Part shown: positions 4,615 to 32,000 of the stretch, piece by piece
How positions within the stretch are numbered: position 1 is the first letter of the stretch
Layout of the letters: each line of letters begins with the position of its first letter
Origin: Dickeya solani IPO 2222
GTDB taxonomy: Bacteria > Pseudomonadota > Gammaproteobacteria > Enterobacterales > Enterobacteriaceae
Assembly: GCF_001644705.1 (NCBI RefSeq)
Contig: NZ_CP015137.1
Location: 2,730,001 to 2,762,000, forward strand
Length of the DNA stretch: 32,000 nucleotides
Direction of reading: 5' to 3'
Notes under the pieces: generated by a model
Told to the model about the DNA's origin: nothing
What the model saw: the letters and a program-made list of their open reading frames with translations, nothing else
Database searches by the model: none
Made by a program: the position numbers and the translations under genes

Positions 4615-4615
4615 C

Positions 4616-5173
4616 GTGAAAATAATAAAACTGTGCATTCTTCTGTGCCTTAGCGCTTGGTTGGCGGGATGCACTCTGTCTGGCCCGCGGCAAGTGGACA
4701 AACCTGACAACGAAACAACCGGGTATCAGTTAGATGAAGGCGATTCTGTAAATATTCTGGTATACGGCGAGCCGGAGATGGCGATGACATTCATGTTGGA
4801 TAAAAGCGGCGCGATTACCTTCCCTTATATTGGTCAACTGGTGTTGAAAGGGAAAACGCCAGGGCAGGTGGGCGAGGAGTTAGCCAATCGTCTGCGCGGC
4901 GACTATCTGCAAAACCCGATGGTGACGGTCAGCATCGCCGAGTTCCGGAAGTTCTATATCACCGGTGAGGTTGCGAAGCCGAACGGGTATGCCTACGAGC
5001 CGGGCTTAACCGTTGAAAAAGCGCTGGCGCTGGCCGGTGGATTTACCGATCGCGCAGACCGCAAGGATGTCAGTATTCGGCTGTCGAATAGCAATCAACG
5101 GGTTGAGGATGTCGATGTAAGACGCGCGGTTCATCCTGGCGACACCGTGATTGTCGGTATGAGTTTTTTCTGA
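4616..5173 (+). CDS. Short outer-membrane polysaccharide export (OPX, Wza-family) lipoprotein
   Basis: 185 aa with lipobox 'LSAWLAGC', a Poly_export-like motif region ('VNILVYGEPEM...FPYIGQLVLKGKT') and one SLBB-like segment. It is about half the length of E. coli Wza as I recall it, so the C-terminal OM-spanning helix region is absent. Confidence 0.8.
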   Translation: MKIIKLCILLCLSAWLAGCTLSGPRQVDKPDNETTGYQLDEGDSVNILVYGEPEMAMTFMLDKSGAITFPYIGQLVLKGKTPGQVGEELANRLRGDYLQNPMVTVSIAEFRKFYITGEVAKPNGYAYEPGLTVEKALALAGGFTDRADRKDVSIRLSNSNQRVEDVDVRRAVHPGDTVIVGMSFF

Positions 5174-5175
5174 CC

Positions 5176-7368: not shown

Positions 7369-7381
7369 GTTTACTAACAAG

Positions 7382-10954: not shown

Positions 10955-10960
10955 GCAGGT

Positions 10961-12175: not shown

Positions 12176-12176
12176 T

Positions 12177-13289: not shown

Positions 13290-13307
13290 TAAATCAATAG
13301 GTTAATA

Positions 13308-13715
13308 GTGAACGAATCTAATAAACGCCCGTTAGTCATCGAACGCTTCTACGAGGCGCTTGATGGAAAAACCGACACGGAGCTGACTTCGGAACAACGG
13401 CTGGCCGTTGAGCAGGCGGTGTTATCGATCACGGCGGCTTCAATGCATTGGGTCGATGTGCGTAAGAGTTTTCCTTTTTTTAGCCGGCGCTATTACTTCG
13501 TCTTTTTATTCGGGTTGGATCACCGTAAACGTCCCCGTAAAGAATCGACGCTGTTTTGCATACTGATGACCGCGTTGATCCTGTTTACCGGCTTGTCCTG
13601 CACGCTGGCGGCGCTATTGACGCTATACATGATTAAGTCTGCCTTGGGTATTGATATTTTCCCACATTTCCACTTAGGAATTTGGGATTGGTGGCTCAGC
13701 CTGAAGGATCACTGA
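13308..13715 (+). CDS. Small membrane protein of unknown function
   Basis: 135-aa ORF with a GTG start, a soluble N-terminal part and two clear hydrophobic segments ('YYFVFLFGL', 'LFCILMTALILFTGLSCTLAALLTLYMI'). It is co-directional within the locus. I recognise no family. Confidence 0.45.
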   Translation: MNESNKRPLVIERFYEALDGKTDTELTSEQRLAVEQAVLSITAASMHWVDVRKSFPFFSRRYYFVFLFGLDHRKRPRKESTLFCILMTALILFTGLSCTLAALLTLYMIKSALGIDIFPHFHLGIWDWWLSLKDH

Positions 13716-13753
13716 CCTCCGGTTTCTACTGATGTGGAGATAAGGAGTCATAA

Positions 13754-15148
13754 GTGAATTTTAAAATTATCGCTGTAGGAGGTTTGCTATTTTCTGTATT
13801 GGGTGTGGCCGATGGCGCGATGACGACCGTCACTCCCAGAGGATTAACTGGCCCGTTAACGAATCCGGGCAATGGCGTTGCCAGCTTTAACAAGGGTAAT
13901 GGCGCAACGTTGTCACTGGCGAATTATCCGGATACCGGCATTGAATATGACCGCTTTTACTGGAGTGAACTGGAGCCGGTAGAAGGTCAATATAACTTTC
14001 AGCTTGTGGATGCCATCTTCGAACTGGCTAGCCAGCATCAACCGCCGATGAGCGTGGGGTTGCGCTTTATGACGCTTGACGAGCCGGCCAGTGGCTCGAA
14101 GATTCCTGACTGGTTGATCCAAAAAGGGATCAAGGGCGAGTGGACGCTGGATAAAAAAACCTTTGTACCGGATTTGGACGACCCGGTGTTTATCGAATAC
14201 AGCCAGCGTTTGCTTAACGCTTTTGGTCAGCGCTATGACGGTAATTCGAATCTGGCTTATATCGATATTGGGTTGGTGGGATCATGGGGCGAGTGGCACA
14301 ACACCAATTTCCCCACCATTAAGCCGCTGCTGGAACGCTATACATCCGCTCAGTTAGATAATTACGTGAAAATGTATTTTGCCGCGTTTCCCAACAGCCC
14401 CAAAATTATGCTCATTAGCGGCGGCGATACTTTGGTCAGTGCAGTGAAGCAAGGTGCGGGATGGCGCGCGGATTGTTGGGGAGACTGGCATAATTTCTCG
14501 ACCACGTGGAGTCACATGCAAGATGATTATCCGCAGCGGCTGCAAAACGCGGAGGCTCTTTATCCAAATTTTAGCTCTGCATGGCAACGCGCGCCGGTGA
14601 GTCTGGAAATCTGTGGTTATATGCCGGAGTGGCAGAGCGTGCAGCACTATACTCGTGCGCAAGTGCAGGCGACCTTTGACTGGGCGCTGGCACAGCATGC
14701 CAGCACCATTAATCTGAAATCGCGCAGCGTGCCGACGGAATATCGGGACATTGTGGATAACGCGCTGACCAAACTCGGTTACCGTTTCCGCCTGGCCTCT
14801 TTAACCCATGAGTCTGAACTGGCGCAAGGGCAGAGCCTGACACTAAACAGCCAGTGGTTTAATGACGGCGTGGCGCCCATTTATCTGAAATATGATTTGG
14901 CCTATCGGGTGGTGAATGATGCCAACACCGTGATGATTATGGGAAAAACGGCTGATGACATTCGCACCTGGCTGCCGGGGAAGTATACGCTCGTCTATCA
15001 ATTGGCGATGTCGGAAGCACTGCCAGCCGGGCAGTATAATATTGATGTGGCGATGCTGGATGCAAAGGGAGTATCGCGAATTAATCTCGCCAACGAGGGC
15101 AAGCAGTCCGATGGTTGGTATCGAATTTCCACAGTAACGGTGCGCTGA
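13754..15148 (+). CDS. Secreted glycoside-hydrolase-like protein (TIM-barrel, DUF4832-like)
   Basis: 464 aa with a GTG start preceded by 'aaggag'. It has a signal peptide ('MNFKIIAVGGLLFSVLGVADG') plus 'YWSELEPVEGQYNF' and 'GLVGSWGEWHN' motifs typical of clan GH-A-like polysaccharide hydrolases. EPS loci commonly carry such a gene. Confidence 0.6.
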   Translation: MNFKIIAVGGLLFSVLGVADGAMTTVTPRGLTGPLTNPGNGVASFNKGNGATLSLANYPDTGIEYDRFYWSELEPVEGQYNFQLVDAIFELASQHQPPMSVGLRFMTLDEPASGSKIPDWLIQKGIKGEWTLDKKTFVPDLDDPVFIEYSQRLLNAFGQRYDGNSNLAYIDIGLVGSWGEWHNTNFPTIKPLLERYTSAQLDNYVKMYFAAFPNSPKIMLISGGDTLVSAVKQGAGWRADCWGDWHNFSTTWSHMQDDYPQRLQNAEALYPNFSSAWQRAPVSLEICGYMPEWQSVQHYTRAQVQATFDWALAQHASTINLKSRSVPTEYRDIVDNALTKLGYRFRLASLTHESELAQGQSLTLNSQWFNDGVAPIYLKYDLAYRVVNDANTVMIMGKTADDIRTWLPGKYTLVYQLAMSEALPAGQYNIDVAMLDAKGVSRINLANEGKQSDGWYRISTVTVR

Positions 15149-15174
15149 GCACGGAATAAAGAATAGATATTCAT

Positions 15175-15675
15175 ATGCTGAAAAATATCGGCCATGTATG
15201 GCGTGAGGTAAAGGCGGCCGGCAGTGTTAAAGCCAAACTGGTCATACTGCTGTTTCGCCTTTCTACCATTTATCAGTCATCAAATGCACTGCTGAAAATT
15301 ATCAGCATTCCTTTTGTTGTCCTGAATAAAGTGATTAATGAGTGGCTGTTTTGTGTGGAAATTCCGCACAGAACCCAAATCGGTTTTGGGCTGAAAATAT
15401 ATCACCCGCACTGTATTGTGGTGAATTCCGACGTAATCATCGGGGCGAACTGCACATTACGGCAGGGGGTCACCATTGGCAGCGTGATAAACCGTGAAGG
15501 CCATACCACCAAAAGCCCGGTGCTGGGCAATCAGGTGGAGCTTGGCGCCAATGCCATTTTGCTCGGCGACATTACATTAGGTGATAACGTAAAAGTCGGC
15601 GCCGGAACCGTGGTAACAAAAAGCCTTGCTGCGGGAAAGGTGGTCGTGGGGTATGGGGTCAGGGAATTGAATTGA
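15175..15675 (+). CDS. Hexapeptide-repeat O-acetyltransferase (serine acetyltransferase/WcaB-like)
   Basis: 166 aa with left-handed beta-helix repeats ('IGANCTLRQGVTIGSV', 'VLGNQVELGANAILLGDITLGDNVKVGAGTVV'). Confidence 0.85.
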   Translation: MLKNIGHVWREVKAAGSVKAKLVILLFRLSTIYQSSNALLKIISIPFVVLNKVINEWLFCVEIPHRTQIGFGLKIYHPHCIVVNSDVIIGANCTLRQGVTIGSVINREGHTTKSPVLGNQVELGANAILLGDITLGDNVKVGAGTVVTKSLAAGKVVVGYGVRELN

Positions 15676-21223: not shown

Positions 21224-22493
21224 TTAGCCAGCCGTATAACTTCGCGCATAAATATACGGCGCGACATATCCTTCACGGTTTACGTCCAGATAATCCGACC
21301 ACCACTGCATCATTTCGATTCTGGCTTCCAGATGCTCGGCTTTATGCACGTAAGCAGCCCGCACGCCGTTGCGCTCTTTGTGGCTCATCTGCCGCTCAAT
21401 GGCATCCTTTGACCAGCGTCCGGACTCGTTCAGGGCACTACAGGCCATGGTTCTGAAACCGTGACCGCAGATTTCGGTTTGAGTGTCATAACCAATCACG
21501 CGCAGCGCCTTGTTGATGGTGTTTTCACTCATCGGCTTGTTCAGGGTATGTGCGCCCGGAAAAACGAAGACCGACTCGCCGGAAATCGCCTGAATCTGTT
21601 TCAGCAGGGCGACCGCCTGCCGTGACAGCGGTACCAGATGTTCATCCTTCATCTTTGCGCCATGCGCTGAAAATCGCACGCCGTTTACCGACTCGCGTTT
21701 GGCGGGTACGCTCCAGATATGCGCTTTCAGATTGAATTCATCCCAGCGGGCAAAACGTAGTTCGCTGGAGCGCAGGAAAACGTGCAGATTCAGCTCCAGC
21801 GCCAGACGGGTCAGCATCCGGCCTTTGTAGTTATCCATCTTCTCCAGCAGTTCAGGCAGGCGCTTCAGCGGCAGGGCGGGGTGATGTTGGGTCGCTACCG
21901 GGGTCACGACGCCATCTAAATCGTAAGCCGGATTGTATTTGATTACGCCCTGCTGCACGGCGTGGCGCATGATTTTAGTCAGATGCTGGCGTACCCGTCC
22001 GGCGACGTCATGCACACCTTTGTCATCAATGGCCTTAACCAACTGCGCCAGATGGCGGGTTTCAACCTGAGATATCCATCGCACCAATCGCGGGGAAAAC
22101 ATAGCGTTTCAGGCAGGTGAGGATTTTATCGGCGTGCGCGTCCGACCAGGGTTTTAGAGAACTGGTGTGCCATGCCAGAGCGACCTACTGAAAGGTACGG
22201 GATTCCTCAACGGCGGGGTTGTTCGTTTTGCGAAGCTGAGAAGGGCTGAGTCCAGACGCCAGTAGCTTACGTGCTGCACCGCGCTTTTCGCGGGCTTTTG
22301 CCAGCGTAGTCTGAGGGTAGGGGCCAAAGGCCAGACGGCTTTCTTTACCGCCGAGGCGATAGCGGAAATACCATAGCTTAGCGCCGCTGGGTGATACCGT
22401 GAGATACAGGCCTTGCGAGTCGGTGAGTTTATAAGATTTTTCGAGAGGTTTCGCTAAGCGGGTTTTGCTGTCAGTTTACGTATAAGCGTTACC
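21224..22493 (-). pseudogene. int: P4-type tyrosine integrase, inactivated
   Basis: The 292-aa C-terminal ORF carries the catalytic motifs ('HGFRTMA', 'RAAYVH'). Upstream, the N-terminal part ('TDSKTRLAKPLEKSYKLTDSQGLYLTVSPSGAKLWYFRYRLGGKE...') lies in another frame. It is interrupted by an in-frame TAG ('RTFQ*VALAWH') and a frameshift at 'AMDIS|QVETRH'. The expected start region reads 'tat acg taa act gac', so it has no ATG and contains a stop. Confidence 0.85.
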
Positions 22494-22636: not shown

Positions 22637-22656
22637 TGGTGCCCGGACTCGGGATC
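22637..22656 (-). other. tRNA-Phe 3'-end fragment: island attachment-site direct repeat
   Basis: 'tggtgcccggactcgggatc' matches 19 of 20 nt of the reverse complement of the enterobacterial tRNA-Phe 3' end (TGGTGCCCGGACTCGGAATC). The rest of the tRNA is absent. Confidence 0.8.
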
Positions 22657-23697: not shown

Positions 23698-24021
23698 CTG
23701 GTTCGATTTACTGGGATATTTACACTGGGTTATCTGAGCAACATCCGCAGAATTGAAACCCTCACTGGCAACTCCCTCAGCGTTGTGATTAATGCGCTAA
23801 GCGGCAACCCTACCTATGTGCGCTTTGATGCCACTGTCGCCGGTAAAGAAGCAACGGACCTTATAAGCCGCTGCCAGAAAGCCGTAGATGAAGACCAGAA
23901 ATTGCTACTTGGGTTTACTCTCAGCAATCTGACGTCTGACATTTTCACCTTTAACAAAGGTGTTCATGCAGGTGAACAGCGGGTTAGCCTGAAAGCCAGA
24001 CTGATTAAGTCGATTGGATAA
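23698..24021 (+). pseudogene. DUF3577-like gene remnant with no start codon
   Basis: The open frame from 23698 reads '...FTLGYLSNIRRIETLTGNSLSVVINALSGNPTYVRFDATVAGKEATDLISRCQKAVDEDQKLLLGFTLSNLTSDIFTFNKGVHAGEQRVSLKARL'. This resembles the DUF3577 family of pKLC102/ICEclc-type elements as I remember it. The 5' end is cut at the TA-cassette junction and the C-terminus looks short. Confidence 0.4.
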
Positions 24022-24117
24022 ATATTGGGCAGCAGATGGTTTATAAGGCTGAGCGAGTAGAGTCCCCCTCTCCGACTAAGTCTAGTCAGTACTATGTCGA
24101 TCATTCATTTTAACTTA

Positions 24118-24146
24118 ACGCCCTGCTCCATTCAGGGCGTAATTTT
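24118..24146 (+). terminator. Hairpin terminator at the left edge of the low-GC cassette
   Basis: Stem 'acgccctg'/'cagggcgt' (8 bp), loop 'ctccatt', followed by 'aatttt'. Confidence 0.6.
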
Positions 24147-24156
24147 CCTGTGCTAA

Positions 24157-25500
24157 GTGGAACATATTGCACCGACTGTTGAATATGTTAGGATAGAAAA
24201 CATTATTTTCTCTAATGACTACCACTTCATGATTCCACAAACTATAAATAGAGAAGCTGCGAAAACTTCTGGAAGCGGATTGTTATTTCAAAGAGTTAGG
24301 GCAGTTCATCGCCTCTTAAATTTGATAAGCAAACTGGGTAAGAAAACTTGTTATTGTGCAACGGAATTCATTGAAGACTCTGCGACCCTAGTTGTAGAAG
24401 ATGGTGTTGCAACTATAGGAATAGAAGAGAATAAAAAATACTCAAGTGGCCTGAGTTTTAATTCAGAGGCAATAAAAAATACGATTGTGGCTTTTGCAGA
24501 TGAATATATAAGTCACTTTAAAGACTCAAAGACAATTGATTTTTCAATGTTTTGTCATGCTCAAATATCAGATGAGCAACTTGATAATTCAATTTTAAAT
24601 GTAGTTGTTCCTAACCTTCAACTTAGTCAAACCAAAACTACAAAGCTCAGTATATTGAAGAGGTTATCTCTAAAGATAGCACTCACACAAGATGAAATAA
24701 CTATAGCAAAATTTTTATTTTTTCAGGAATACGAAAAGCAATATGCTATTTATGCTGATAAAGATAAAAAAATAATTACATCTTATGGTGGAAACCACAA
24801 GGTTATATCTCAATGGACTAATCAAGATTTTTACGAGTTTTTATCTTCTATTGATTTTGTTATAACTGAATCTGATAGAGATAGCTATGATGACGAAGTT
24901 ATGAAAAGTATCAAGGATTGCCAATTCTATGATCATCGACATTATGGGCTTGAAAATATAATTCTTGGTGCCTTGGAAAGTTTGTTCGATAGAAACCAAC
25001 AAGATGAAAGAAAATTTGGACGTTTTGTTAGTCGTGAAATGGTACAAGTCATTTTTCTACAAGCAGCCTCAAATCAAAATGAACTTAAACCTATAGATCC
25101 TGCATGGAAAATATTCGAAGATCTTGATGTAAGTGATCAGAGAAATCTTAAGGAAAAATTGAGAGCTGTCTGTAATGACATTAAAAATAAAAAAGTCCAA
25201 CTTCTAAGTTTCACCGCCACTAAAGCAAGAACTAATGAAGAGTTATTTGGACAGGAGTATATTTCCTTAAGATGCAACTTTTACGAGTGGTGTAGCGATT
25301 ATATTTCTGGGAATTTTTCACAGATAAGTTACACATCAGACGATATACTAGCCCATTTAGACCAAATGGTAGAGTTATGCTATGATAACATTCAACAACT
25401 TAAAAAAACTTATCGAATGAGCATTGATGATAAGCTAACGATTCGTGGTATAATTTTAACATTGATTGATGATTGTTACTTAGCATTCGACGAAGAATAG
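24157..25500 (+). CDS. Candidate effector of the three-gene system: N-terminal Cap4/DUF4297-like PD-(D/E)xK nuclease motif plus a helical C-terminal region (LmuA-like?)
   Basis: 447 aa, low GC. The N-terminus contains 'SGSGLLFQRVRAVHRLL', then 'CATEFIEDSATLVVEDG...IGIEENKKY' (D74 ... E91-x-K93). The GTG start is uncertain, and ATG 24229 is an alternative. The stop lies 3 nt from the next start. Confidence 0.5.
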   Translation: MEHIAPTVEYVRIENIIFSNDYHFMIPQTINREAAKTSGSGLLFQRVRAVHRLLNLISKLGKKTCYCATEFIEDSATLVVEDGVATIGIEENKKYSSGLSFNSEAIKNTIVAFADEYISHFKDSKTIDFSMFCHAQISDEQLDNSILNVVVPNLQLSQTKTTKLSILKRLSLKIALTQDEITIAKFLFFQEYEKQYAIYADKDKKIITSYGGNHKVISQWTNQDFYEFLSSIDFVITESDRDSYDDEVMKSIKDCQFYDHRHYGLENIILGALESLFDRNQQDERKFGRFVSREMVQVIFLQAASNQNELKPIDPAWKIFEDLDVSDQRNLKEKLRAVCNDIKNKKVQLLSFTATKARTNEELFGQEYISLRCNFYEWCSDYISGNFSQISYTSDDILAHLDQMVELCYDNIQQLKKTYRMSIDDKLTIRGIILTLIDDCYLAFDEE

Positions 25501-25503
25501 ATT

Positions 25504-26082
25504 ATGAATACAAATACAAATACAAATACAAATACAAATACAAATACAAATACAAATAAAAATAAGGATAAACTAAAAAGAATAAGCTTCGTTTCTGGTG
25601 AAGACTTTTACTTTTTAACTTACTTAATAATTATTTGTCTCAAAGAGTTTTCTAATAAAAAGCTTATTTTTAAAGACCATAGAAAACTGACTTTTTTGAT
25701 GCAAATAATTTCCAGTTCTACTGCTGTTAATATTCTTATTGAGAATCATGGTGAGGGTGTTTTAAAGCCATTCGACAAGGAATATTTATTTGATATATAT
25801 GTTAAAGCTTCCTTACACCAAAGAGAAGTTTATAAAATAGTAAGGAGTCTCGAAAAAAGCGGAGTAATCTCGGTAATTGATACTGAAAAAATTGATTGTT
25901 ACAATGTTGAGGTTAAGAATAACGACCTTTTTAGTTCTTTTTTTGATACGGAACTTTTTAATAGAGAATTAAATAACACAGCCATTTTGAAATCTCATTT
26001 CAAGTCTATAAATATTCTTGGGCTTGATGGTTTGATTGGAAAGTTTTTCACTGAGTATGGATTGAATTTATGGGCCAATTAA
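25504..26082 (+). CDS. Small middle component of the three-gene system (LmuC-like?)
   Basis: 192 aa with an N-terminal (NT)8 tract and a central segment 'REVYKIVRSLEKSGVISV' that looks like a winged-helix recognition region. It overlaps the next gene by 13 nt. I recognise no family with certainty. Confidence 0.45.
   Translation: MNTNTNTNTNTNTNTNTNKNKDKLKRISFVSGEDFYFLTYLIIICLKEFSNKKLIFKDHRKLTFLMQIISSSTAVNILIENHGEGVLKPFDKEYLFDIYVKASLHQREVYKIVRSLEKSGVISVIDTEKIDCYNVEVKNNDLFSSFFDTELFNRELNNTAILKSHFKSINILGLDGLIGKFFTEYGLNLWAN
25507..25554 (+). repeat. Perfect hexanucleotide tandem repeat (AATACA)x8 in codons 2-17
   Basis: The sequence is 'aataca' x8, followed by the degenerate units 'aataaa' and 'aataag'. 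It encodes NTNTNTNTNTNTNTNT-NK-NK. Confidence 0.95.
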
Positions 26083-28010
26083 AAATACATAAAATGCACT
26101 ACGAGGGTAAGCTTTATAATTTCAGCTCACCCGAACTGGATAAATTCAAAGTCAACATAATCGAAGCACCTAATGGATGCGGAAAATCTACTTTTTTCGA
26201 TCTGATTTATTACGGGTTAGGAGGAAAAGTTCCTCATTTCAGTAGCACTGAAAAAGAAAAACATAATGAAATAGTCAATGATAAATCAAACTTTGTTGAG
26301 TTAGAAGTTTCATTGAAAAGCAAATCGTTCAAATTCATAAGAAAAATCGGTGAGAACCTTATTACTATCCTTTCAGATGAACCTTTCTTAAACAATGATG
26401 GGTCATCTGTAGACTTCTTATGCTTGGCTATTAATAGAAACAAATCGGAAGACTATATATTTTCAGATTGGATTCTTGAACAACTTGACATCCCAAGCAT
26501 TGAGATTTTTCACGCAGGTAAAAACTTCAAAATAGGTTTTAACGATTTATTACGCCTTGTATATCATAACCAAGGTACTGATGTTAATGGTATCTATAAA
26601 CCTGCTGATAACCAAAACTATATCAGCGATTCAGTATTCCTTAGAAAAGCCATCTTCGAAGTTTTGATGGGAAAGACCTTAGTCAAACTTTATGAAGCTT
26701 ACGGTAACCTAAAGCGCAAGCAGTCAGAACATGAAAAAGCCAATGCGATCCTTTCTGAATATAGAAACATTGTTTCAGGAATGTATAAACAACTTGGTTT
26801 CAAAGAGGTTATTAATGATTACCACTTAACCAAAGAAATAAATGATTTGGAAGAGTCTGTTGAGCGTTTAATATCTTTTCGCTCAGAAAAATTAACCTCG
26901 AAAATTAGTGAAAATGCTGGGCTAAGTCATATTACAAGATTGAAGGGGGCATATGGTCGCGCTGAGCTTAATATAATTGATTTAAAGCAAAAACTTGAAA
27001 TTAAGTTGAAGGACATTGATTCGCTTAATCGTGTAATTAGACAAACAAGGGAAGATGCTTTTAGGCTCCAGAAAATCATTCACACACACAGACAGTTGGA
27101 AATGTTTACACCTGATACTTGTCCATATTGCTTGAAAAATGTTGATAGGCCAAGTGATAAGTGTGTTTGTGGGCATGATATTGATGAAAATGATTATAGA
27201 AGATATTTCTATGACCCGGGTGAATATTATACGCTGCTTAAAAGCAAAGTTAAGTCTTTAGAGACGATGGAAGTCGCTCTAAAAACTGCACAGGATGATT
27301 TTAAATCTATAGAAAGCGAAATTGAGGCCTCTAATATTTCAAATATTATTTTGAAAGAAGAACTCTCAAGTGCTCTAAATGAAATTGAGTATATTACTAA
27401 CTTTGATGAAATAGATGATGTAGAAGATCATCTGCTTAGACAAAAGGAGAAAATCAGCAGTTTGAGACAAGCTCTTCAGCTTGAGAAAAACCTTCAGGAT
27501 TATCAACGTGTAAAAGACGCTGCTAAAAGAGACATGGACTTAGCAAAAATTGCTGTCGAAAGGTTGGAAGCCTCATCTGAAGCTGAGCTACTCGAAAAAG
27601 TTGACAAGTTCAATAAATACTATAATCACTTCATGAAATCTTCATTACTGGATTGTCGAGTCGCAGAGATTAATAATGACGATTACATGCCGCTGATAAA
27701 CAATGGTGTTTATAAAGAAGCTAGTGCAGCTGTGCATAAAAGATTTCTATACTATTTAACACTTCTTCAGCTTTCACTATTAGATGACATTCCTTTCCCT
27801 CGCCTGCTGTTAATTGACACTCCGGAGAATATAGGTATTGATAATGTTAATCTTAAACGAATGATTTCATGCTTGGATATGCTTGAGAATCCAAACAATG
27901 TTGACTACCAGGTAATTTTGTCTACCGGTGAGAATAAATACCCTGACTCAATGAAAGATAATGTCATCATTAAATTAAATGAAGAAAATAGATTACTCAA
28001 AGAAAAATAA
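26070..28010 (+). CDS. Coiled-coil ABC/SMC/Rad50-type ATPase with central Cys4 knuckle (LmuB-like?)
   Basis: 646 aa. It has Walker A 'APNGCGKST' (res 33-41), a Q-loop-like 'YHNQG' (res ~165-169), and heptad-rich helices over about res 200-520. These helices are interrupted by 'CPYC-x10-CVC' (res 351-367). A Walker B-like 'RLLLIDTPE' lies at res 578-586. No canonical LSGGQ motif is visible. Confidence 0.7.
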   Translation: MGQLKIHKMHYEGKLYNFSSPELDKFKVNIIEAPNGCGKSTFFDLIYYGLGGKVPHFSSTEKEKHNEIVNDKSNFVELEVSLKSKSFKFIRKIGENLITILSDEPFLNNDGSSVDFLCLAINRNKSEDYIFSDWILEQLDIPSIEIFHAGKNFKIGFNDLLRLVYHNQGTDVNGIYKPADNQNYISDSVFLRKAIFEVLMGKTLVKLYEAYGNLKRKQSEHEKANAILSEYRNIVSGMYKQLGFKEVINDYHLTKEINDLEESVERLISFRSEKLTSKISENAGLSHITRLKGAYGRAELNIIDLKQKLEIKLKDIDSLNRVIRQTREDAFRLQKIIHTHRQLEMFTPDTCPYCLKNVDRPSDKCVCGHDIDENDYRRYFYDPGEYYTLLKSKVKSLETMEVALKTAQDDFKSIESEIEASNISNIILKEELSSALNEIEYITNFDEIDDVEDHLLRQKEKISSLRQALQLEKNLQDYQRVKDAAKRDMDLAKIAVERLEASSEAELLEKVDKFNKYYNHFMKSSLLDCRVAEINNDDYMPLINNGVYKEASAAVHKRFLYYLTLLQLSLLDDIPFPRLLLIDTPENIGIDNVNLKRMISCLDMLENPNNVDYQVILSTGENKYPDSMKDNVIIKLNEENRLLKEK

Positions 28011-28239
28011 TATAGCCACCTTTTTATATAGGTAATCTTAAATTTTCACTTTAAATGTTGGGAGGGAAGCATCAAGTCAACAACTCCTTCCCATGACGGT
28101 TTTTAGATAATAATTTAGGTCACTTGGAGTTTGAGTTATTTATTAACGTAAGAGTCTAGGTGAAACGTGATATTTTTATAAAATCTTGATAGAGAGTAAT
28201 TGGTTAATCCTTACTATTTCATTTTTATGATGCTTTCAT

Positions 28240-28260
28240 CCTCCTAATTTTAATAGGAGG
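28240..28260 (+). promoter_or_regulatory. Hairpin pairing an anti-SD with a perfect SD upstream of a 35-codon ORF
   Basis: 'cctcct' and 'aggagg' form a 6-bp stem with a 9-nt loop. ATG 28265 lies 4 nt after the SD and opens a 35-codon ORF (28265-28372). Confidence 0.3.
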
Positions 28261-28499
28261 TAATATGTTAAAAACTCTTGAAAAATACTCTATGTTTCGA
28301 TTTTTGTGCTGTGTTCAAAATCATATGCACTCGAAATTGAGAATTCAGAATCGAGCACTACTTCTGCTATAAACTCAAACCAATCAAGTAACTCAAATGA
28401 TTCAGTTATGTAAATATCCCGTCAAACAGAGCCATTCATTTTAAGCATATTTATACATAACTCGATAAATCAGGCTCAATGTGAATGCGTTGAACCCCC

Positions 28500-28805
28500 T
28501 CAAATCCCCCAAAACATAAGATTAATAGCATCCTTAATCTCATCCGCGTAGTCGCCAAGATCCGCAATCACTTCACCCATGACTTCAACAGGTACGCTCG
28601 ATAGTTCAGTCGTCATCAGCCGATAATCTTCGCCGTCGATGCGGATCTTAGGGAACAACGTCTTATTCACTTTCTCAGACAGGTGGTGTGCTTCGATAAG
28701 CGGAATGACCATGCGCCGCTTGGGTGTCTCGACGATATCACTCTGCACATCGACAAACATTTTGTAGTGACTGGCTCGTTTGTATTCATAAACAATGAAT
28801 TGCAT
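28500..28805 (-). CDS. ccdB: CcdB toxin (gyrase poison)
   Basis: '[36 protein letters not shown]...[10 protein letters not shown]' is collinear with F-plasmid CcdB as I remember it. I place the start at ATG 28805, not the GTG at 28811. Confidence 0.9.
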
Positions 28806-28807
28806 GA

Positions 28808-29026
28808 TCACCAGTTCCTGTTTTCATCCGCAAAGGAGCCATTCTGCGCGATAAATCGGGCGACTTCCTCCATCCCCTCACTGTTTTCTTTCTTCCACTC
28901 CTCAGCCTTGATACGGCGGGCTTCTTTGCCAATGGCATCGTTCACCAGCCCAGAAATGTTGACTCCGGCAGCACTCAGAACCTGATAGTTGTCTTTGTCT
29001 ACGGTAACACTGACGCGGTGTTTCAT
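28808..29026 (-). CDS. ccdA: CcdA antitoxin
   Basis: '[28 protein letters not shown]...[23 protein letters not shown]' is collinear with F-plasmid CcdA. Its stop lies 2 nt from the ccdB ATG. Confidence 0.9.
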
Positions 29027-29084
29027 GATAGTGCTCCTCTCGTGTGCATACTTTGAGTATATATTCCGCGTGGTTGTTCAGCAA

Positions 29085-29828
29085 TTAGCCAAGATTCAAA
29101 TTCAACCCCTTCAACTCCTCAAACGTATAGACCCGAAAAACATGGCGGTGCTTCGTTTCCAGCCGGATGTGTTGACGGTTAACGATGGCGTATTTCACGC
29201 TATTGAACAGCAGTTCGATAGCCCGCTTCATCTGCGGGTTGGGCACGATATAGAAAACGTACATCCAGTGTTGCTGAGTGCGCGCCAGCAAATGGCTGGT
29301 GATAATCGCCTGATAACGGGCTTTGGTTTTCAGACGGCGCTCAGTCTCAACAGCGATAACTGTCCCGTCTGGTAACGTTATCAGCCCGCCCGGGCGATGA
29401 TATACCTCATATCGGCTGCGGAATGTTGAATCTGCGCCGCTGATCCACCCATAAGCGCCTTTCTTCTCAAGAAGGAGCCGCGATAGCTGACGATCAAGGC
29501 GCTGCATCAGCGTCCAGCCAGTGACTTTCGAGGGCTCAAACCGTGCAGGAAAGCCATCCTCATGGGGTGTGACGACAACGGATAATCCGTCGTTGGTGAT
29601 CCCCCATAGTGAGATTTTCTCCATCCTTGTGCAAAACGTCTGCTTTTGAATGAATCCCATGTCGATGGCCTTTGCCAGCAGCAGATAAAGCGGCTTGTGA
29701 TTTTTATAATCAAAAAGCTGCATCAGGGTTTTAAAATCGCTGTAGGTTTCTTCTTTCAGAAAGGTGAGCAGACGTCGCATTTTTTCGTGACTACGCGCCC
29801 GGCGTTCACGGTAATCAGAAATCAGCAT
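29085..29828 (-). CDS. Replication-relaxation (Replic_Relax/MobC-like) family protein, tentative
   Basis: 247 aa with a good SD ('aaggagg' 6 nt upstream of the ATG). It has an N-terminal winged-helix-like region and 'HRPGGLITLPDGTVIAVETERRLKTKARY', which resembles the RPD...E-x-E/D...K...Y core of that family. This is from memory only. Confidence 0.4.
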   Translation of the reverse strand: MLISDYRERRARSHEKMRRLLTFLKEETYSDFKTLMQLFDYKNHKPLYLLLAKAIDMGFIQKQTFCTRMEKISLWGITNDGLSVVVTPHEDGFPARFEPSKVTGWTLMQRLDRQLSRLLLEKKGAYGWISGADSTFRSRYEVYHRPGGLITLPDGTVIAVETERRLKTKARYQAIITSHLLARTQQHWMYVFYIVPNPQMKRAIELLFNSVKYAIVNRQHIRLETKHRHVFRVYTFEELKGLNLNLG

Positions 29829-29929
29829 GGTTCCTCCTTCGCATTTTACTGGGGTGTTCGCTCTTTCGGTTTTATCGCCTCATTGCATGGGGGAATACCT
29901 TCGCCCACTGGCATGAGTCGACATCATGA

Positions 29930-30560
29930 GGCGATCTTGTGGGGATAAAGAGGTGACCGCGATGCGGTCATGCGCCGGAAAATACCTTTCCCGGCGCAAA
30001 ACGGCGTGCGCCAGTTCATGCGGGCTGGACGCCCTTATTACCTGGCACATGGGGGTAATGTCGCGGCTGGACGCCACGCCAAAACCCCCGAGGTCAACGG
30101 CGGCACACCGTCGCACGCTACGCGCGACTACCCCCTTTGAGACGCCGTTTTTAGCCCACTTTTTCTTTTGCCCGTGCCGGTCAGCGAAAAAATGGGAAAA
30201 CGCCTTCAAAGTGGGTAGTCGCGCCTCGCTACCGGCTGGTGGCCGGAGACTTAGCGGCGACGGTGTGCGGGGCTGTCGCCCCCCAAATAAACCGACGCGT
30301 GGGCGCGTCTTTTTGCTCGCTGGGGCGGCAAAATTTATTCGGCTCCCCCCGGCCTGCTCGGTTCCCCTTGGGGGGAACGCTCGCCGGTGGGTTCGGGCGA
30401 CGCAAATGCCCCCTTTCTGCGAAATGGCATTTACTCGCCTCACGCCACGGTTGAATGCCCGCGGGGCGCAGGCACCCACCCGCCTAAACCCGTCGCGTCC
30501 TGCGTCGTGCCTGGATGGCCTGTTGAGCGCTGTCAGGGTTGCGAAAATAAAACGTGCTGG
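29930..30560. other. GC-rich, hairpin-dense, probably non-coding block (oriT/origin or structured RNA candidate)
   Basis: My hand counts give 58-68% GC per 60-nt line. Long ORFs on both strands are Arg/Gly/Ala/Pro-rich and look like junk. Stems include 29954-29970, 29972-29997, 30269-30282, 30294-30314 (followed by T5) and 30361-30378. Confidence 0.5.
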
Positions 30561-30730
30561 CATGTCTTCTCCCTACTGAAATCAGCCGGTAGAAAAGGCT
30601 ATAGGGAAAAGGGGAGGAGGCCTGCAAACAACTCAATATCGAATATCAAGAATTAGGGGGGATTCAGTTATGGCAGCAAAAAAGCCCTGACCGTGAATGA
30701 CTCACGGCAGAGCTTTAATCAGGCGCGGAT

Positions 30731-31081
30731 TCAGAGGCTTATCGGGCGGGTGGGAGCGTGTGCGCGTCTGTGCATATCGTTAAGCGCCGGGATGAGTAGG
30801 CTGATGGCATTTAGCCCATGCCCCAACTGGCATAAACTTTCCGGCGTGGATTCGCACACGTCATTATCGGCAAAGGTAATCAGCGCATCGCCAATGAAAT
30901 TTAGGCAATGACACAGCCCGGCGCTGGTTTCGGCGCAATACTCTGCCACCTGCGAGAGTTCGTCATCGTCCATGTTTGAAAAATCCAGACGCGCCAGCGC
31001 GGCATTCATGGCGGAATACAGGCTCTCGCAATCCGGCAGTGATTGGTAAGACGAGCCCGTGTTACTATCGGTGTCAGCCAT
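30731..31081 (-). CDS. Acidic hypothetical protein
   Basis: I place the start at ATG 31081 ('MADTDSNTG'), which is preceded by 'gaggac', rather than 31096. About 116 aa, Cys- and Asp/Glu-rich. I recognise no family. Confidence 0.5.
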   Translation of the reverse strand: MADTDSNTGSSYQSLPDCESLYSAMNAALARLDFSNMDDDELSQVAEYCAETSAGLCHCLNFIGDALITFADNDVCESTPESLCQLGHGLNAISLLIPALNDMHRRAHAPTRPISL

Positions 31082-31169
31082 AGCATTAGTCCTCATAATG
31101 TTGTGGTCAGAAGCCCGGTGAGTGTTCCTAGCACTGCCGGGCTTCGCTCTTTATCGTTGCAAAATACCG

Positions 31170-31221
31170 TGTAATTGCGGTGTAATTACAACAAGACCAT
31201 GCTATGGAATTTGTAATTACA
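31170..31221. promoter_or_regulatory. Three copies of a TGTAATTACA palindrome (putative operators) in a divergent promoter region
   Basis: Perfect 10-bp palindromes lie at 31181-31190 and 31212-31221, with an 8/10 copy at 31170-31179. Centre spacings are 11 and 31 bp. Confidence 0.6.
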
Positions 31222-31392
31222 ATGTCAAGTGAAAAGTCAAAAACAGACCAGTATCAGATTCGACTGTCCCACGAGTTTCGGGCGCAATTGGAAGAACAAG
31301 CCCACAAAGATGGCGACAAGACATTGGCTACATGGATAAAGCGTATTCTGCGCAAAGAACTCCAGACCCGAGGCATCGAACCCAAAGGTTAA
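31204..31392 (+). CDS. Arc/MetJ-type ribbon-helix-helix DNA-binding protein
   Basis: 62 aa. 'YQIRLSHEFRAQLEEQAHKDGDKTLATWIKRIL' fits an RHH strand-helix-helix pattern. The true start may be ATG 31222, because the third palindrome lies between the two ATGs. Confidence 0.6.
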   Translation: MEFVITMSSEKSKTDQYQIRLSHEFRAQLEEQAHKDGDKTLATWIKRILRKELQTRGIEPKG

Positions 31393-31473
31393 CGGTGATT
31401 GGGGCCGTCGATGTCGCAAATCCTAACGTGTAAGAAACGTTTGGCAGAATGCCCGGATGATTTTACGACAACG

Positions 31474-31514
31474 CTCCTGACGGGTTTTCTATCACATAGA
31501 AATCCCGTCAGGAG
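31474..31514. repeat. 19-bp-arm inverted repeat downstream of the integrase stop (copy 2)
   Basis: The sequence is 'ctcctgacgggttttctat cac atagaaatcccgtcaggag', a counterpart of 21166-21206. Confidence 0.8.
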
Positions 31515-31531
31515 CCAACAAGCGCAGCGCG

Positions 31532-32000
31532 TTAGCCTGCCGCATAACTCCGCGCATAAATATACGGCGCGACGTAGCCCTCGCGGTTGACGTCCAGATA
31601 ATCCGACCACCATTGCATCATTTCGATTCTGGCCTCCAGATGCTCCGCTTTATGCACGTAGGCAGCCCGCACGCCGTTGCGCTCTTTGTGGCTCATCTGC
31701 CGCTCGATGGCGTCTTTTGACCAGCGCCCGGACTCGTTCAGCGCGCTACAGGCCATGGTTCTGAAACCGTGACCGCAGATTTCGGTTTGGGTGTCGTAGC
31801 CAATCACGCGCAGCGCTTTGTTAATAGTGTTCTCACTCATCGGCTTGTTCAGGGTATGTGCGCCGGGAAAAACGAAGACCGATTCGCTGGAAAGTGCCTG
31901 AATCTGTTTCAGCAGGGCGACCGCCTGCCGTGACAGCGGCACCAGATGTTCATCCTTCATCTTTGCGCCACGCTCTGAGAATCGGACGCCGTTTACCGCT
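31532..32000 (-). CDS. int: P4-type tyrosine integrase, 3' part; the gene continues beyond the window
   Basis: The frame is open to the window edge. The last 142 aa differ at 3 positions from the 21224-22102 copy, and the catalytic 'HGFRTMA' and 'RAAYVH' motifs are present. Confidence 0.85.
   Translation of the reverse strand, partial: AVNGVRFSERGAKMKDEHLVPLSRQAVALLKQIQALSSESVFVFPGAHTLNKPMSENTINKALRVIGYDTQTEICGHGFRTMACSALNESGRWSKDAIERQMSHKERNGVRAAYVHKAEHLEARIEMMQWWSDYLDVNREGYVAPYIYARSYAAG

What the first reader, a model, noticed from the sequence alone, without database searches (positions are those of the whole stretch)
24157..28010. Low-GC three-gene operon: nuclease-like effector, small middle protein and coiled-coil ABC ATPase, a candidate anti-phage/anti-plasmid system
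Three co-directional genes are translationally coupled (stop 25500/start 25504, and a 13-nt overlap at 26070-26082). My hand counts give about one-third GC here, against about 58% in the neighbouring TA genes.
- Gene C (646 aa) has a split ABC/SMC/Rad50-type head: Walker A 'APNGCGKST', Q-loop-like 'YHNQG' and Walker B-like 'RLLLIDTPE'. The two halves are separated by about 330 aa of heptad-rich helix with a central Cys4 element.
- Gene B (192 aa) is small and helical, with a possible winged-helix segment.
- Gene A (447 aa) starts with a Cap4/DUF4297-like PD-(D/E)xK pattern and continues as an unassignable helical region.
An effector, a small adaptor and a coiled-coil ABC ATPase in one operon is the blueprint of ABC-3C systems, also called type II Lamassu (Vibrio DdmABC-like). 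These sense foreign DNA structures and trigger abortive nuclease activity. The operon sits in an island variable region flanked by TA modules, a typical defence hotspot. It may be a divergent Lamassu rather than something wholly new. Proteins A and B are where novelty would lie.
Basis: partly seen in the sequence, partly recalled or inferred. Interest (0 to 1): 0.85.

Follow-up and report, generated by a model that had tools for sequence, protein, structure and literature searches.

The report
Divergent Lamassu anti-phage operon, Dickeya
The three low-GC genes are a complete but sequence-divergent type II Lamassu defence operon (Cap4-like nuclease LmuA, small LmuC, Rad50-like ATPase LmuB) that moves as a 3.85-kb cassette between mobile elements, so it is a new member of a known kind of system rather than a new one.

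Summary
Three co-directional, tightly coupled genes (32.5% GC, flanks about 52%) lie at 24157-28010 in a Dickeya solani tRNA-Phe island. There are two corrections. Gene A most likely starts at ATG 24229 (423 aa). The flanking TA genes are 52-54% GC, not 58%.

The Lamassu interpretation is supported for all three proteins:
- **Gene C** matches PADLOC LmuB over its full length (6e-58). It has Walker A, a Q-loop, a deviant Walker B (LLLIDT) and an invariant CPYC...CxCG element at mid-length.
- **Gene A** matches PADLOC LmuA (2e-11). Its AF2 model hits solved LmuA chains over the full length (8.5e-10), then Cap4. D50/E66-E67/K69 form the PD-(D/E)xK motif.
- **Gene B** has no direct family hit. Its model's best PDB matches are LmuC chains, and 6 of 29 homologs hit PADLOC LmuC.

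The same cassette occurs in a Salmonella ICE, a Serratia P2-like prophage hotspot and next to an RM gene in Bacteroidota.

None of the three proteins is detectable by sequence against the solved Lamassu structures, and Pfam gives only a borderline generic AAA_23 hit for gene C. This is therefore an uncharacterised lineage of a known family. The likely mechanism, by analogy, is DNA-end sensing by LmuB2-LmuC, release and tetramerisation of LmuA, then abortive DNA degradation.

The parts
24167..24194 (+). Putative sigma-70 promoter of the cassette: TTGCAC, 16-nt spacer, TGnTAGGAT (extended -10)
   Evidence: Read from the sequence. The motif is conserved in the Salmonella copy, and the two sequences become alignable exactly here, at about 24163. 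It falls below the threshold of the consensus scan (8 of 12), so it is tentative.
The effector consists of a Cap4-like PD-(D/E)xK nuclease NTD (aa 1 to ~283, window 24229-25077), a low-confidence linker (aa 284-304) and a helical CTD (aa ~305-423, window 25141-25497).
   Evidence: PADLOC LmuA 1.9e-11. AF2 model pLDDT 78.5. Foldseek hits LmuA 9nxx_D at 8.5e-10 and 9hr5_C at 8.4e-9 over about 440 columns, and Cap4 6wan at 1.9e-4 over about 263 columns. Invariant Q21, R24, E46, D50, E66, E67 and K69 sit on the alpha-beta-beta-beta core. The start is supported by invariant M25 and public gene calls of 423 aa.
25504..26082 (+). lmuC (middle component), 192 aa. It has a disordered N-terminus followed by a helical/winged-helix body.
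   Evidence: AF2 pLDDT 81.5, pTM 0.76. The best PDB fold matches are LmuC chains 9uxh_D, 9ny5_C and 9hqu_D (TM 0.43-0.53). Six of 29 homologs hit PADLOC LmuC PDLC03869 (best 7.4e-07). The window protein itself has no PADLOC, Pfam or NCBIfam hit.
25507..25564 (+). (AATACA)n in-frame hexanucleotide repeat encoding (Asn-Thr)n at the LmuC N-terminus. It is polymorphic between strains.
   Evidence: TRF reports 9.7 copies at 98% match. There are 8 perfect units here, 7 and 6 in two other D. solani genomes, and 1 in Salmonella. The region is predicted disordered (pLDDT below 50 for residues 1-30).
26070..28010 (+). lmuB, 646 aa: a short Rad50/SMC-like coiled-coil ABC ATPase, the presumed sensor
   Evidence: PADLOC LmuB PDLC03859 6e-58 over residues 3-643, plus nine further LmuB models. 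The family profile hits Rad50 and SMC5/6 heads in the PDB (5.8e-6). Length and motifs fit 'short LmuB' as defined in PMC12663957.
26166..26192 (+). LmuB Walker A / P-loop (aa 33-41, APNGCGKST; K39)
   Evidence: N35, G36, G38, K39 and T41 are invariant in 27 homologs; position.
27114..27173 (+). LmuB apex Cys4 element (aa 349-368, DTCPYCLKNVDRPSDKCVCG): a CPxC zinc-hook motif plus an extra CxCG
   Evidence: D349, C351, P352, Y353, C354, L355, V358, R360, C365, C367 and G368 are invariant. The element is flanked by proline-free stretches of about 160 aa. CPxC is the LmuB/Rad50 zinc-hook motif (PMC10586767).
27801..27827 (+). LmuB deviant Walker B / D-loop (aa 578-586, RLLLIDTPE)
   Evidence: D583, T584, P585 and E586 are invariant. 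This fits the short-Lamassu consensus hhhhD[Q/S/T/E] (PMC12663957).
24163..28015 (+). Extent of the mobile cassette shared with the Salmonella ICE copy (promoter plus three genes, about 3.85 kb)
   Evidence: Dickeya/Salmonella alignments lose similarity upstream of about 24163 and within about 15 nt after the lmuB stop codon.
22638..22656 (+). Context: att-like repeat of the tRNA-Phe 3' end, the distal boundary of the ~10.3-kb island that carries the cassette
   Evidence: There is a direct repeat with the tRNA-Phe that lies just beyond the window's right end (L001 14884-14959). The match in the window is unique, with 0 expected by chance.

Best explanation
This is a complete type II ('short') Lamassu anti-phage/anti-plasmid system, lmuA-lmuC-lmuB, of the Cap4-like nuclease class. 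It travels as a self-contained 3.85-kb cassette and sits here in a tRNA-Phe integrative island (an ICE remnant) of Dickeya solani.

The mechanism below is inferred by homology to the solved V. cholerae and Salmonella systems and was not tested here.
1. Two LmuB protomers, joined at their zinc-hook apex, together with one LmuC hold one LmuA monomer through its C-terminal domain. This keeps the nuclease inactive.
2. The LmuB heads bind free DNA ends, or the replication intermediates or hairpins of an invading phage or plasmid. With slow ATP turnover, they then release LmuA.
3. Free LmuA tetramerises through its CTD, which pairs the nuclease domains into an active PD-(D/E)xK site (D50/E66-E67/K69).
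4. DNA is degraded indiscriminately and the infected cell dies before the invader spreads (abortive infection).

What is shown: the identity and architecture of the three proteins, the conservation of catalytic, ATPase and zinc motifs, and the mobility and defence-type neighbourhoods. What is inferred: stoichiometry, trigger, tetramerisation and phenotype.
For: - **LmuB:** the PADLOC match covers the full length at 6e-58. Walker A, the Q-loop, the signature-like Y-x-E-x-S, the deviant Walker B (LLLIDT) and the CPYC...CxCG element are all invariant. These fit the published definition of short LmuB: about 600-650 aa, hhhhD[Q/S/T/E], and 0-2 zinc-hook motifs.
- **LmuA:** PADLOC gives 2e-11 for the window protein, and 18 of 29 homologs also hit. 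The fold matches solved LmuA over NTD and CTD (8.5e-10) and then Cap4, Avs3 and HamA nuclease domains. The catalytic Lys is at position 69, against K68 in SalEnt LmuA.
- **LmuC:** the top fold matches are LmuC chains, and there is a transitive PADLOC LmuC link.
- **Operon:** the order lmuA-lmuC-lmuB with a 3-nt gap and a 13-nt overlap is kept down to 28% identity in Bacteroidota.
- **Context:** the cassette is found in a Salmonella ICE beside a ScoMcrA-HNH restriction gene and ArdC, in the gpA-portal hotspot of a P2-like prophage in Serratia, and beside a type IIG RM gene.
- **Mobility:** distribution across genera is patchy, with 99% identity between Dickeya and Pectobacterium, and GC is 32.5% against flanks of about 52%.
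- **Effector module:** the nuclease NTD also occurs fused to NACHT/STAND proteins.
- **Mechanism sources:** PMC12663957, 10.1101/2025.03.14.643221 and 10.1101/2025.06.23.660979.
Against: - No experiment exists for this lineage.
- None of the three proteins is detectable by sequence against the solved Lamassu chains, even with profiles of 27-75 sequences.
- The Pfam Cap4_nuclease model is not matched by any of 29 family members.
- Foldseek E-values for LmuC are weak (0.02-0.14) and TM is only about 0.5.
- LmuA's global TM is about 0.4 with large rmsd, because the domain orientation differs.
- The Cys4 element (CPYC plus CxCG) differs from a plain CxxC hook, so apex dimerisation may not work as in SalEnt.
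- LmuB's structure was not predicted here.
- Expression in D. solani is unknown, and AT-rich foreign DNA is commonly H-NS-silenced in Enterobacterales.
Confidence: 0.85

Rival explanations
1. It is a Lamassu by descent, but in this host its main role is to help the mobile element: excluding competing plasmids or ICEs, or stabilising the island in the manner of an addiction module. It would not primarily protect the cell from phage.
For: The cassette lies between two toxin-antitoxin modules, next to a MobC gene and an oriT-like remnant. It is carried by an ICE and a prophage elsewhere. DdmABC is known to eliminate plasmids.
Against: All Lamassu systems tested so far also restrict phages. Nothing in the sequence separates the two roles, and they are not mutually exclusive.
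Confidence: 0.1
2. The operon is intact but silent or non-functional in D. solani. It would be a passenger, silenced as AT-rich foreign DNA or disabled by the expanding Asn-Thr repeat in LmuC.
For: GC is 32.5% in a much GC-richer flank. The island is a decayed ICE remnant with a truncated integrase copy nearby. The LmuC repeat varies (8, 7 or 6 units) within a clonal species.
Against: All three ORFs are full length, and every catalytic or structural motif invariant in the family is retained. LmuB is identical across about 40 D. solani contigs. The repeat is in frame and lies in a disordered tail. The promoter-like motif is conserved.
Confidence: 0.08
3. Gene C is a housekeeping SbcC/Rad50/RecN-type repair ATPase and the neighbouring genes are unrelated.
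For: Several depositors call homologs 'DNA repair exonuclease SbcCD ATPase subunit'. The profile hits Rad50 heads in the PDB, and there is a weak TIGR00618 hit.
Against: The TIGR00618 score is 22.5 bits against a cutoff of 478.5. The protein is 646 aa rather than about 1050, and there is no SbcD/Mre11 partner. The genes overlap their neighbours and the trio is kept together across phyla. The distribution is patchy and tied to mobile elements. The full-length match to LmuB is far stronger, at 195 bits.
Confidence: 0.01
4. Gene A belongs to another DUF4297/Cap4-type defence system (a CBASS Cap4 effector, Hachiman HamA or HerA-DUF4297) and is merely adjacent to an ABC ATPase.
For: Foldseek also hits Cap4, HamA (8zue) and HerA-DUF4297 (9c1m, 8zgi). 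One UniRef entry names a homolog 'Cap4-like DNA endonuclease domain-containing protein'.
Against: Those hits cover only the N-terminal ~263-300 columns and rank below 13 LmuA chains that align over the full length. There is no SAVED domain, CD-NTase, HamB helicase or HerA gene in the locus. The partner is always an LmuB-type ATPase.
Confidence: 0.02

Closest known systems
Salmonella enterica Tennessee LmuACB (PDB 9hqu, 9hr5; 10.1101/2025.03.14.643221)
   Same: The gene order is lmuA-lmuC-lmuB. LmuA has a PD-(D/E)xK Cap4-type NTD with its catalytic Lys at almost the same position (K68 versus K69 here), followed by a helical CTD. LmuB is short, with Walker A (K40 versus K39), a signature Ser, a deviant Walker B and a zinc hook that is required for function. 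The LmuC fold is the same.
   Different: No similarity is detectable by phmmer or by profiles of up to 75 sequences. LmuA here is 30-40 aa longer than the solved chains. The LmuB apex carries CPYC plus an extra invariant CxCG, giving four Cys per chain. The SalEnt system belongs to the NTD-Cap4/CTD7/MC3 class, and the class of this one could not be assigned.
Vibrio cholerae DdmABC (Lamassu Vc-Cap4; PDB 9ny5, 9nxx, 9uxh; PMC12663957)
   Same: It has the three-gene type II architecture with a Cap4-like nuclease effector. The best structural matches for A (9nxx_D, 8.5e-10) and B (9uxh_D, 9ny5_C) come from this system. It is carried on a genomic island.
   Different: The Vc clade (clade F) has lost the zinc hook, whereas this lineage keeps an invariant Cys4 element. 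Sequence identity in the structural alignments is only 10-13%.
Type I Lamassu (Bacillus LmuAB; PDB 9ux7)
   Same: It pairs a Cap4/DUF4297 LmuA with an SMC-like LmuB.
   Different: Type I lacks LmuC, whereas here a conserved middle gene is present. The fold match to 9ux7_C is weaker (7.6e-3).
SbcCD / Rad50-Mre11
   Same: It is also a coiled-coil ABC ATPase with a CPxC zinc hook that senses DNA ends, and it is the proposed evolutionary source of Lamassu (PMC12663957).
   Different: There is no Mre11/SbcD nuclease here. The coiled coil is about half as long. The Walker B motif is deviant. The locus is mobile rather than part of the core genome.
CBASS Cap4 effector
   Same: The nuclease-domain fold is the same (6wan, 6vm5; about 2e-4).
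   Different: There is no SAVED sensor domain and no CD-NTase. Activation would be by release from LmuBC, not by a cyclic nucleotide.

Membership tests
Lamassu (type II / short; ABC-3C) | LmuB: an SMC/Rad50-like coiled-coil ABC ATPase of about 600-650 aa with Walker A Gx4GK[S/T] | tested here: met
   646 aa. PADLOC LmuB PDLC03859 matches at 6e-58 over residues 3-643 of the protein and 2-604 of a 611-position profile. GCGKST is invariant.
Lamassu (type II / short; ABC-3C) | Deviant Walker B, hhhhD[Q/S/T/E], in short LmuB | tested here: met
   The motif is LLLID583-T584, and D583, T584, P585 and E586 are invariant. The definition comes from PMC12663957.
Lamassu (type II / short; ABC-3C) | Zinc-hook motif (CPxC or similar) at the coiled-coil apex; present in many clades but not all | tested here: met
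   C351-P-Y-C354 is invariant and sits at mid-length between two proline-free stretches of about 160 aa. An extra invariant C365-x-C367-G368 follows. Metal binding was not tested.
Lamassu (type II / short; ABC-3C) | LmuA: an N-terminal effector domain (here a Cap4/DUF4297 PD-(D/E)xK nuclease) plus a C-terminal LmuA domain | tested here: met
   PADLOC LmuA 2e-11. Foldseek full-length hits to LmuA chains reach 8.5e-10, with Cap4 NTD hits at about 2e-4. D50, E66, E67 and K69 are invariant. Caveat: the Pfam Cap4_nuclease model does not match any of 29 family members.
Lamassu (type II / short; ABC-3C) | LmuC: a small middle component encoded between lmuA and lmuB | tested here: met
   The protein is 178-192 aa and the gene is in the middle position. 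PDB fold ranks 1, 2 and 4 are LmuC chains (TM 0.43-0.53, E 0.02-0.14). Six of 29 homologs hit PADLOC LmuC at up to 7.4e-07. The window protein itself has no direct profile hit, so support is moderate.
Lamassu (type II / short; ABC-3C) | Co-directional, tightly linked operon kept together across taxa, located in mobile elements or defence islands | tested here: met
   The genes have a 3-nt gap and a 13-nt overlap. The same trio occurs in a Salmonella ICE, a Serratia P2-like prophage hotspot and a Bacteroidota RM neighbourhood.
Lamassu (type II / short; ABC-3C) | LmuA1-LmuB2-LmuC1 complex, DNA-end sensing, and activation by LmuA tetramerisation | not testable with these tools
   No multimer prediction or biochemistry was available. 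These steps are inferred from PMC12663957 and the two 2025 preprints.
Lamassu (type II / short; ABC-3C) | Anti-phage or anti-plasmid phenotype that depends on the LmuB ATPase, the LmuA active site and LmuC | not testable with these tools
   This needs cloning and plaque or plasmid assays.
DdmABC / SalEnt clade (NTD-Cap4, CTD7, MC3) | Recognisable sequence similarity to the characterised and solved members | tested here: not met
   phmmer and hmmsearch with profiles of 27-75 sequences find no LmuA, LmuB or LmuC chain in the PDB. Identity in the structural alignments is 9-13%.
SbcCD (housekeeping) | Full-length SbcC (about 1050 aa) above the TIGR00618 cutoff, with an adjacent SbcD/Mre11 nuclease | tested here: not met
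   The TIGR00618 score is 22.5 bits against a cutoff of 478.5, and only residues 11-91 match. There is no SbcD-like gene in the locus.
CBASS (Cap4 effector) | SAVED/CARF sensor domain fused to the nuclease, and a CD-NTase gene nearby | tested here: not met
   The Cap4 hits cover only the nuclease domain (about 263 columns). PADLOC finds no CBASS components, and no cyclase gene is in the locus.
Wadjet | JetA, JetB and JetD partners of the SMC protein | tested here: not met
   There are no Jet hits in PADLOC for any of the three proteins.

The most novel reading that the evidence does not exclude
This lineage may be a mechanistically distinct Lamassu subtype. It comprises about 300 LmuA clusters at 50% identity and is invisible to sequence searches against every solved Lamassu protein.

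Its invariant four-cysteine apex (CPYC-x10-CxCG) would form an intramolecular zinc knuckle in each LmuB chain, rather than a Rad50-style zinc hook shared between two chains. Its longer LmuA CTD and unrecognised LmuC class would then give a different assembly, trigger specificity or activation threshold from DdmABC and SalEnt.

In addition, the strain-variable Asn-Thr repeat at the LmuC N-terminus might tune that threshold.
Probability: 0.15. Interest if true: 0.45.

Novelty: new member of a known kind. Interest (0 to 1): 0.28.

Why it matters
Dickeya solani is an aggressive potato pathogen for which phage biocontrol is being pursued (my own knowledge, not checked here). An intact abortive-infection system on a mobile cassette shared with Pectobacterium, Lonsdalea, Salmonella and Serratia bears on phage host range and on plasmid transformability of these strains. 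I found no paper describing Lamassu in D. solani; the only two papers that mention both Dickeya and Lamassu concern Erwinia amylovora and acute oak decline phages.

For the Lamassu field, the locus offers a compact, natively promoted representative of a lineage that is far in sequence from every solved system. It has a four-cysteine apex that could clarify how zinc-hook variation relates to LmuB dimerisation. Public annotation calls all three genes 'hypothetical' or 'AAA family ATPase', and Pfam gives only a borderline AAA_23 hit for gene C. This shows how defence systems are missed without dedicated HMMs or fold comparison. Beyond that, the finding is ordinary.

Tried and rejected
- **Megablast of 24000-28100** against complete E. 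coli genomes and PLSDB plasmids gave no match, so no annotated near-identical copy was available there.
- **Sequence searches of A, B and C against the PDB** found no Lamassu chain, either singly or as family profiles (A1, A2, A4 and the broad A7). Only Rad50 and SMC heads appeared, for C.
- **Pfam and NCBIfam** gave nothing useful for A or B, and only a borderline AAA_23 hit and a weak SbcC hit for C. KaiC, GLIC and Tctex hits at E of 0.07-1 were dismissed as noise.
- **A crude Fourier test for heptad periodicity** in C was uninformative and is not used as evidence.
- **The terminator scan** found no convincing terminator after lmuB. A GGGAGGGAAG...CTCCTTCCC hairpin at about 28059-28092 folds no better than shuffled sequence (z = -0.5).
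- **Rfam** found nothing in the window at the gathering threshold, and nothing in 28000-32000 at E up to 0.1.
- **Papers:** the SI table of detected Lamassu systems (PMC12663957) and the Krishnan et al. 2020 ABC-3C classification paper are not held. I therefore could not check whether the D. solani system is already listed, or assign CTD and MC classes.
- **Rejected alternatives:** housekeeping SbcC, CBASS Cap4, Hachiman or HerA-DUF4297, Wadjet, and the Gabija, Septu and PARIS ATPases (only P-loop-level PADLOC hits to AriA and PtuA at 1.9e-4 and 6.7e-3).

Full report
**1. Observation**

The three ORFs exist as described: A at 24157-25500, B at 25504-26082 and C at 26070-28010, all on the + strand. 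Direct reading confirms the junctions. Gene A stops at TAG 25498-25500, gene B starts at ATG 25504, and gene C's ATG at 26070 overlaps gene B's TAA at 26080-26082 by 13 nt.

The operon is 32.5% GC (GC3 0.24-0.31). The tacA/tacT genes are 52-54% GC and ccdB/ccdA are 46-51%. Every quoted motif is at the stated residue.

The window comes from the Dickeya solani chromosome. Gene C is identical to ANE75968.1 and other entries on about 40 contigs.

Gene A probably starts at ATG 24229, giving 423 aa. Three results support this. Public gene calls use that start. M25 is invariant, and the few longer homologs have unrelated N-terminal extensions.

**2. Identity of the proteins**

*Gene C.* It matches the PADLOC LmuB model PDLC03859 at 6e-58 over residues 3-643, plus nine other LmuB models. 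Pfam sees only a borderline AAA_23 hit, and NCBIfam gives a sub-threshold SbcC hit over residues 11-91.

A 27-sequence family alignment (36-87% identity) has these invariant features:
- Walker A: N35-G36-x-G38-K39-[ST]-T41.
- Q-loop: Y165-H166-x-Q168.
- A signature-like motif: Y548-x-E550-x-S552.
- Walker B: D583-T584-P585-E586, preceded by hydrophobic residues.
- A mid-length element: D349-T-C351-P-Y-C354...C365-x-C367-G368.

Two proline-free stretches (179-347 and 384-540) flank the cysteine element. The protein's length, its Walker B of the form hhhhD[Q/S/T/E] and its CPxC hook fit the published description of short LmuB (PMC12663957; PMC10586767).

*Gene A.* It matches PADLOC LmuA PDLC03848 at 2e-11 over nearly its whole length, and 18 of 29 homologs do the same. 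No Pfam family matches any of the 29 members, including Cap4_nuclease.

The AF2 model (pLDDT 78.5) has an alpha-beta-beta-beta-alpha-beta core. It carries the invariant residues Q21, R24, E46, D50, E66, E67 and K69 (423-aa numbering). A low-confidence linker (284-304) and a helical C-terminal domain follow.

In Foldseek against the PDB, the top 13 hits are LmuA chains from V. cholerae and Salmonella. Their E-values range from 8.5e-10 to 9e-5, with alignments of 416-444 columns that cover both domains. The next hits are Cap4 (about 2e-4, around 263 columns), the Avs3 nuclease domain, Hachiman HamA and HerA-DUF4297. Global TM is only about 0.4, with large rmsd, because the two domains are oriented differently.

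The catalytic lysine of the solved Salmonella LmuA is K68. Here the equivalent is K69.

*Gene B.* It has no PADLOC, Pfam or NCBIfam hit of its own. Its AF2 model is confident for residues 31-190 (pLDDT 81.5, pTM 0.76) and contains a winged-helix-like segment. PDB ranks 1, 2 and 4 are LmuC chains: 9uxh_D, 9ny5_C and 9hqu_D. They align over the full length with TM 0.43-0.53, but the E-values are weak (0.02-0.14). Independently, 6 of 29 homologs hit PADLOC LmuC PDLC03869, with a best E-value of 7.4e-07. Together with its size and middle position, this identifies B as LmuC with moderate confidence.

**3. Context and mobility**

A tRNA-Phe gene lies just beyond the right end of the window, next to a 419-aa integrase. 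A 19-23 nt repeat of the tRNA 3' end lies at window 22638-22656. Together they delimit an island of about 10.3 kb.

The island carries the following genes:
- TacA/TacT.
- A DUF3577 fragment.
- The Lamassu cassette.
- CcdB/CcdA.
- A MobC-family relaxation protein (NCBIfam 2.4e-102).
- A conserved, unannotated GC-rich stretch.

A truncated second integrase copy (21224-22102; 88-93% DNA identity to the full copy) marks a tandem remnant to the left. In E. coli A38 the MobC gene and the GC-rich stretch belong to a T4SS/T4CP module. In Klebsiella a homologous TacAT pair sits at the end of a SPI-7-type ICE. The Dickeya island therefore looks like an ICE remnant.

The same trio of genes (about 420/178/646 aa) occurs in several other settings:
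- In a Salmonella ICE, between TraG and a ScoMcrA-HNH restriction gene, with ArdC and TraI nearby.
- In a Serratia P2-like prophage, between gpA and the portal gene. From my own knowledge, this is the P2 defence hotspot. Millman et al. also note that Lamassu family members occur in prophage hotspots.
- At 28% identity in a Bacteroidota contig, next to an Eco57I-type RM gene.

Similarity between the Dickeya and Salmonella copies ends at about 24163 on the left and within about 15 nt of the lmuB stop on the right. The mobile unit is therefore the promoter plus the three genes.

Close relatives occur in Pectobacterium (99% identity), Lonsdalea, Pantoea, Cedecea, Aeromonas, Yersinia, Cronobacter, Providencia, Erwinia and E. 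coli.

**4. Mechanism**

The mechanism is inferred by analogy with the solved systems (PMC12663957; 10.1101/2025.03.14.643221; 10.1101/2025.06.23.660979).
1. An LmuB dimer and one LmuC sequester the CTD of one LmuA monomer.
2. DNA ends or replication intermediates, together with slow ATP turnover, release LmuA.
3. Released LmuA tetramerises and forms a composite PD-(D/E)xK active site.
4. DNA is degraded and the infected cell dies (abortive infection).

What is shown here is component identity, motif conservation, operon coupling, mobility and defence-type neighbourhoods. Stoichiometry, trigger, oligomerisation and phenotype are inferred.

**5. Comparison and novelty**

The system meets every testable defining feature of type II (short) Lamassu. 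It is not a close relative of the characterised DdmABC or SalEnt systems. No solved LmuA, LmuB or LmuC is detectable by sequence, even with profiles of 27-75 sequences. Identity in the structural alignments is 9-13%.

The LmuA lineage is sizeable: 323 representatives at 50% identity have E of 1e-3 or better. Its nuclease domain also occurs fused to NACHT/STAND proteins.

The LmuB apex has four invariant cysteines (CPYC plus CxCG). The Vibrio clade, by contrast, has lost the hook. Zinc-hook copy number of zero to two is already documented for short LmuB.

PADLOC models already capture all three families, so this is a new member of a known kind and not a new kind. The CTD and MC classes could not be assigned, because the classification paper is not held. 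I found no paper describing Lamassu in D. solani.

**6. Verdict**

I put 0.85 confidence on this being a Lamassu lmuA-lmuC-lmuB cassette. Interest is low to moderate (0.28). It is an uncharacterised, sequence-divergent lineage with a distinctive Cys4 apex, in a plant pathogen where phage biocontrol matters. Its architecture and likely mechanism are already understood.

Noticed in passing
window 25507-25564 (also L001 7444-7491, L002 7449-7490): An in-frame (AATACA)n microsatellite encodes (Asn-Thr)n at the N-terminus of LmuC. There are 8 units here, 7 and 6 in two other D. solani genomes, and 1 in the Salmonella and other homologs. The tract is predicted disordered. Because it stays in frame it is not an on/off switch, but it is clearly hypermutable in an otherwise clonal species.
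   Followed up: partly
window ~29920-30470 (and L004 4001-4492): A GC-rich stretch of about 500 nt carries long, apparently spurious ORFs on both strands (227 and 217 aa). It is conserved at 75-81% identity in 247 plasmid records (168 of them conjugative) and in 314 E. coli genomes. It is almost always unannotated and has no Rfam match. In E. coli A38 it lies between a T4CP/mobC pair and a VirB-type T4SS cluster. It could be an oriT or leading-region non-coding element, or an unrecognised RNA.
   Followed up: partly
window 29085-29828 (-): This 247-aa ORF is deposited without a Pfam hit. It is a MobC-family replication-relaxation protein (NCBIfam NF041423.1, 2.4e-102; 66% identical to E. coli A38 MobC). 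The coupling protein that follows it in E. coli is missing here, so the island looks like a mobilisable ICE remnant.
   Followed up: yes
window 21224-22102 (-) and 22638-22656: A truncated 292-aa integrase shares 88-93% DNA identity with the full-length tRNA-Phe island integrase about 10.3 kb to its right. Together with a repeat of the tRNA-Phe 3' end, this shows a tandem array of two islands at one tRNA-Phe site, with the left one decayed.
   Followed up: partly
window 23785-24021 and 24118-24140: A 78-aa fragment of a DUF3577 protein (profile positions 37-113 of 133) is followed by a strong terminator-like hairpin (ACGCCCTG...CAGGGCGT plus a T-run). The hairpin sits immediately upstream of the Lamassu cassette's left edge.
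   Followed up: no
window 28011-28499: A 489-nt spacer of 32% GC lies between lmuB and ccdB. It has no ORF longer than 38 aa and is not shared with the Salmonella copy of the cassette. Its origin is unknown; it may be a remnant of other AT-rich cargo.
   Followed up: no
proteins P0207, P0211, P0215, P0217 (about 1775 aa), P0220, P0222, P0202: The LmuA-type nuclease N-domain (profile positions 1 to about 283-329) also occurs fused to the N-terminus of large NACHT/STAND NTPases (Avs-like), and once to a protein with a putative AbiC domain. This indicates a nuclease effector module shared between defence systems.
   Followed up: partly
L003 7775-9703: In the Bacteroidota homolog of the operon, lmuB is called as two ORFs (350 and 242 aa). 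This is probably a frameshift, a pseudogene or an assembly error.
   Followed up: no
window ~1932-15675: A long co-directional gene cluster lies upstream of the island. It resembles exopolysaccharide biosynthesis and export loci: outer-membrane beta-barrel protein, undecaprenyl-phosphate glucose phosphotransferase and polysaccharide export protein, at 71% DNA identity to Enterobacter plasmids. GC dips to 37.5% near 1500-2500.
   Followed up: no
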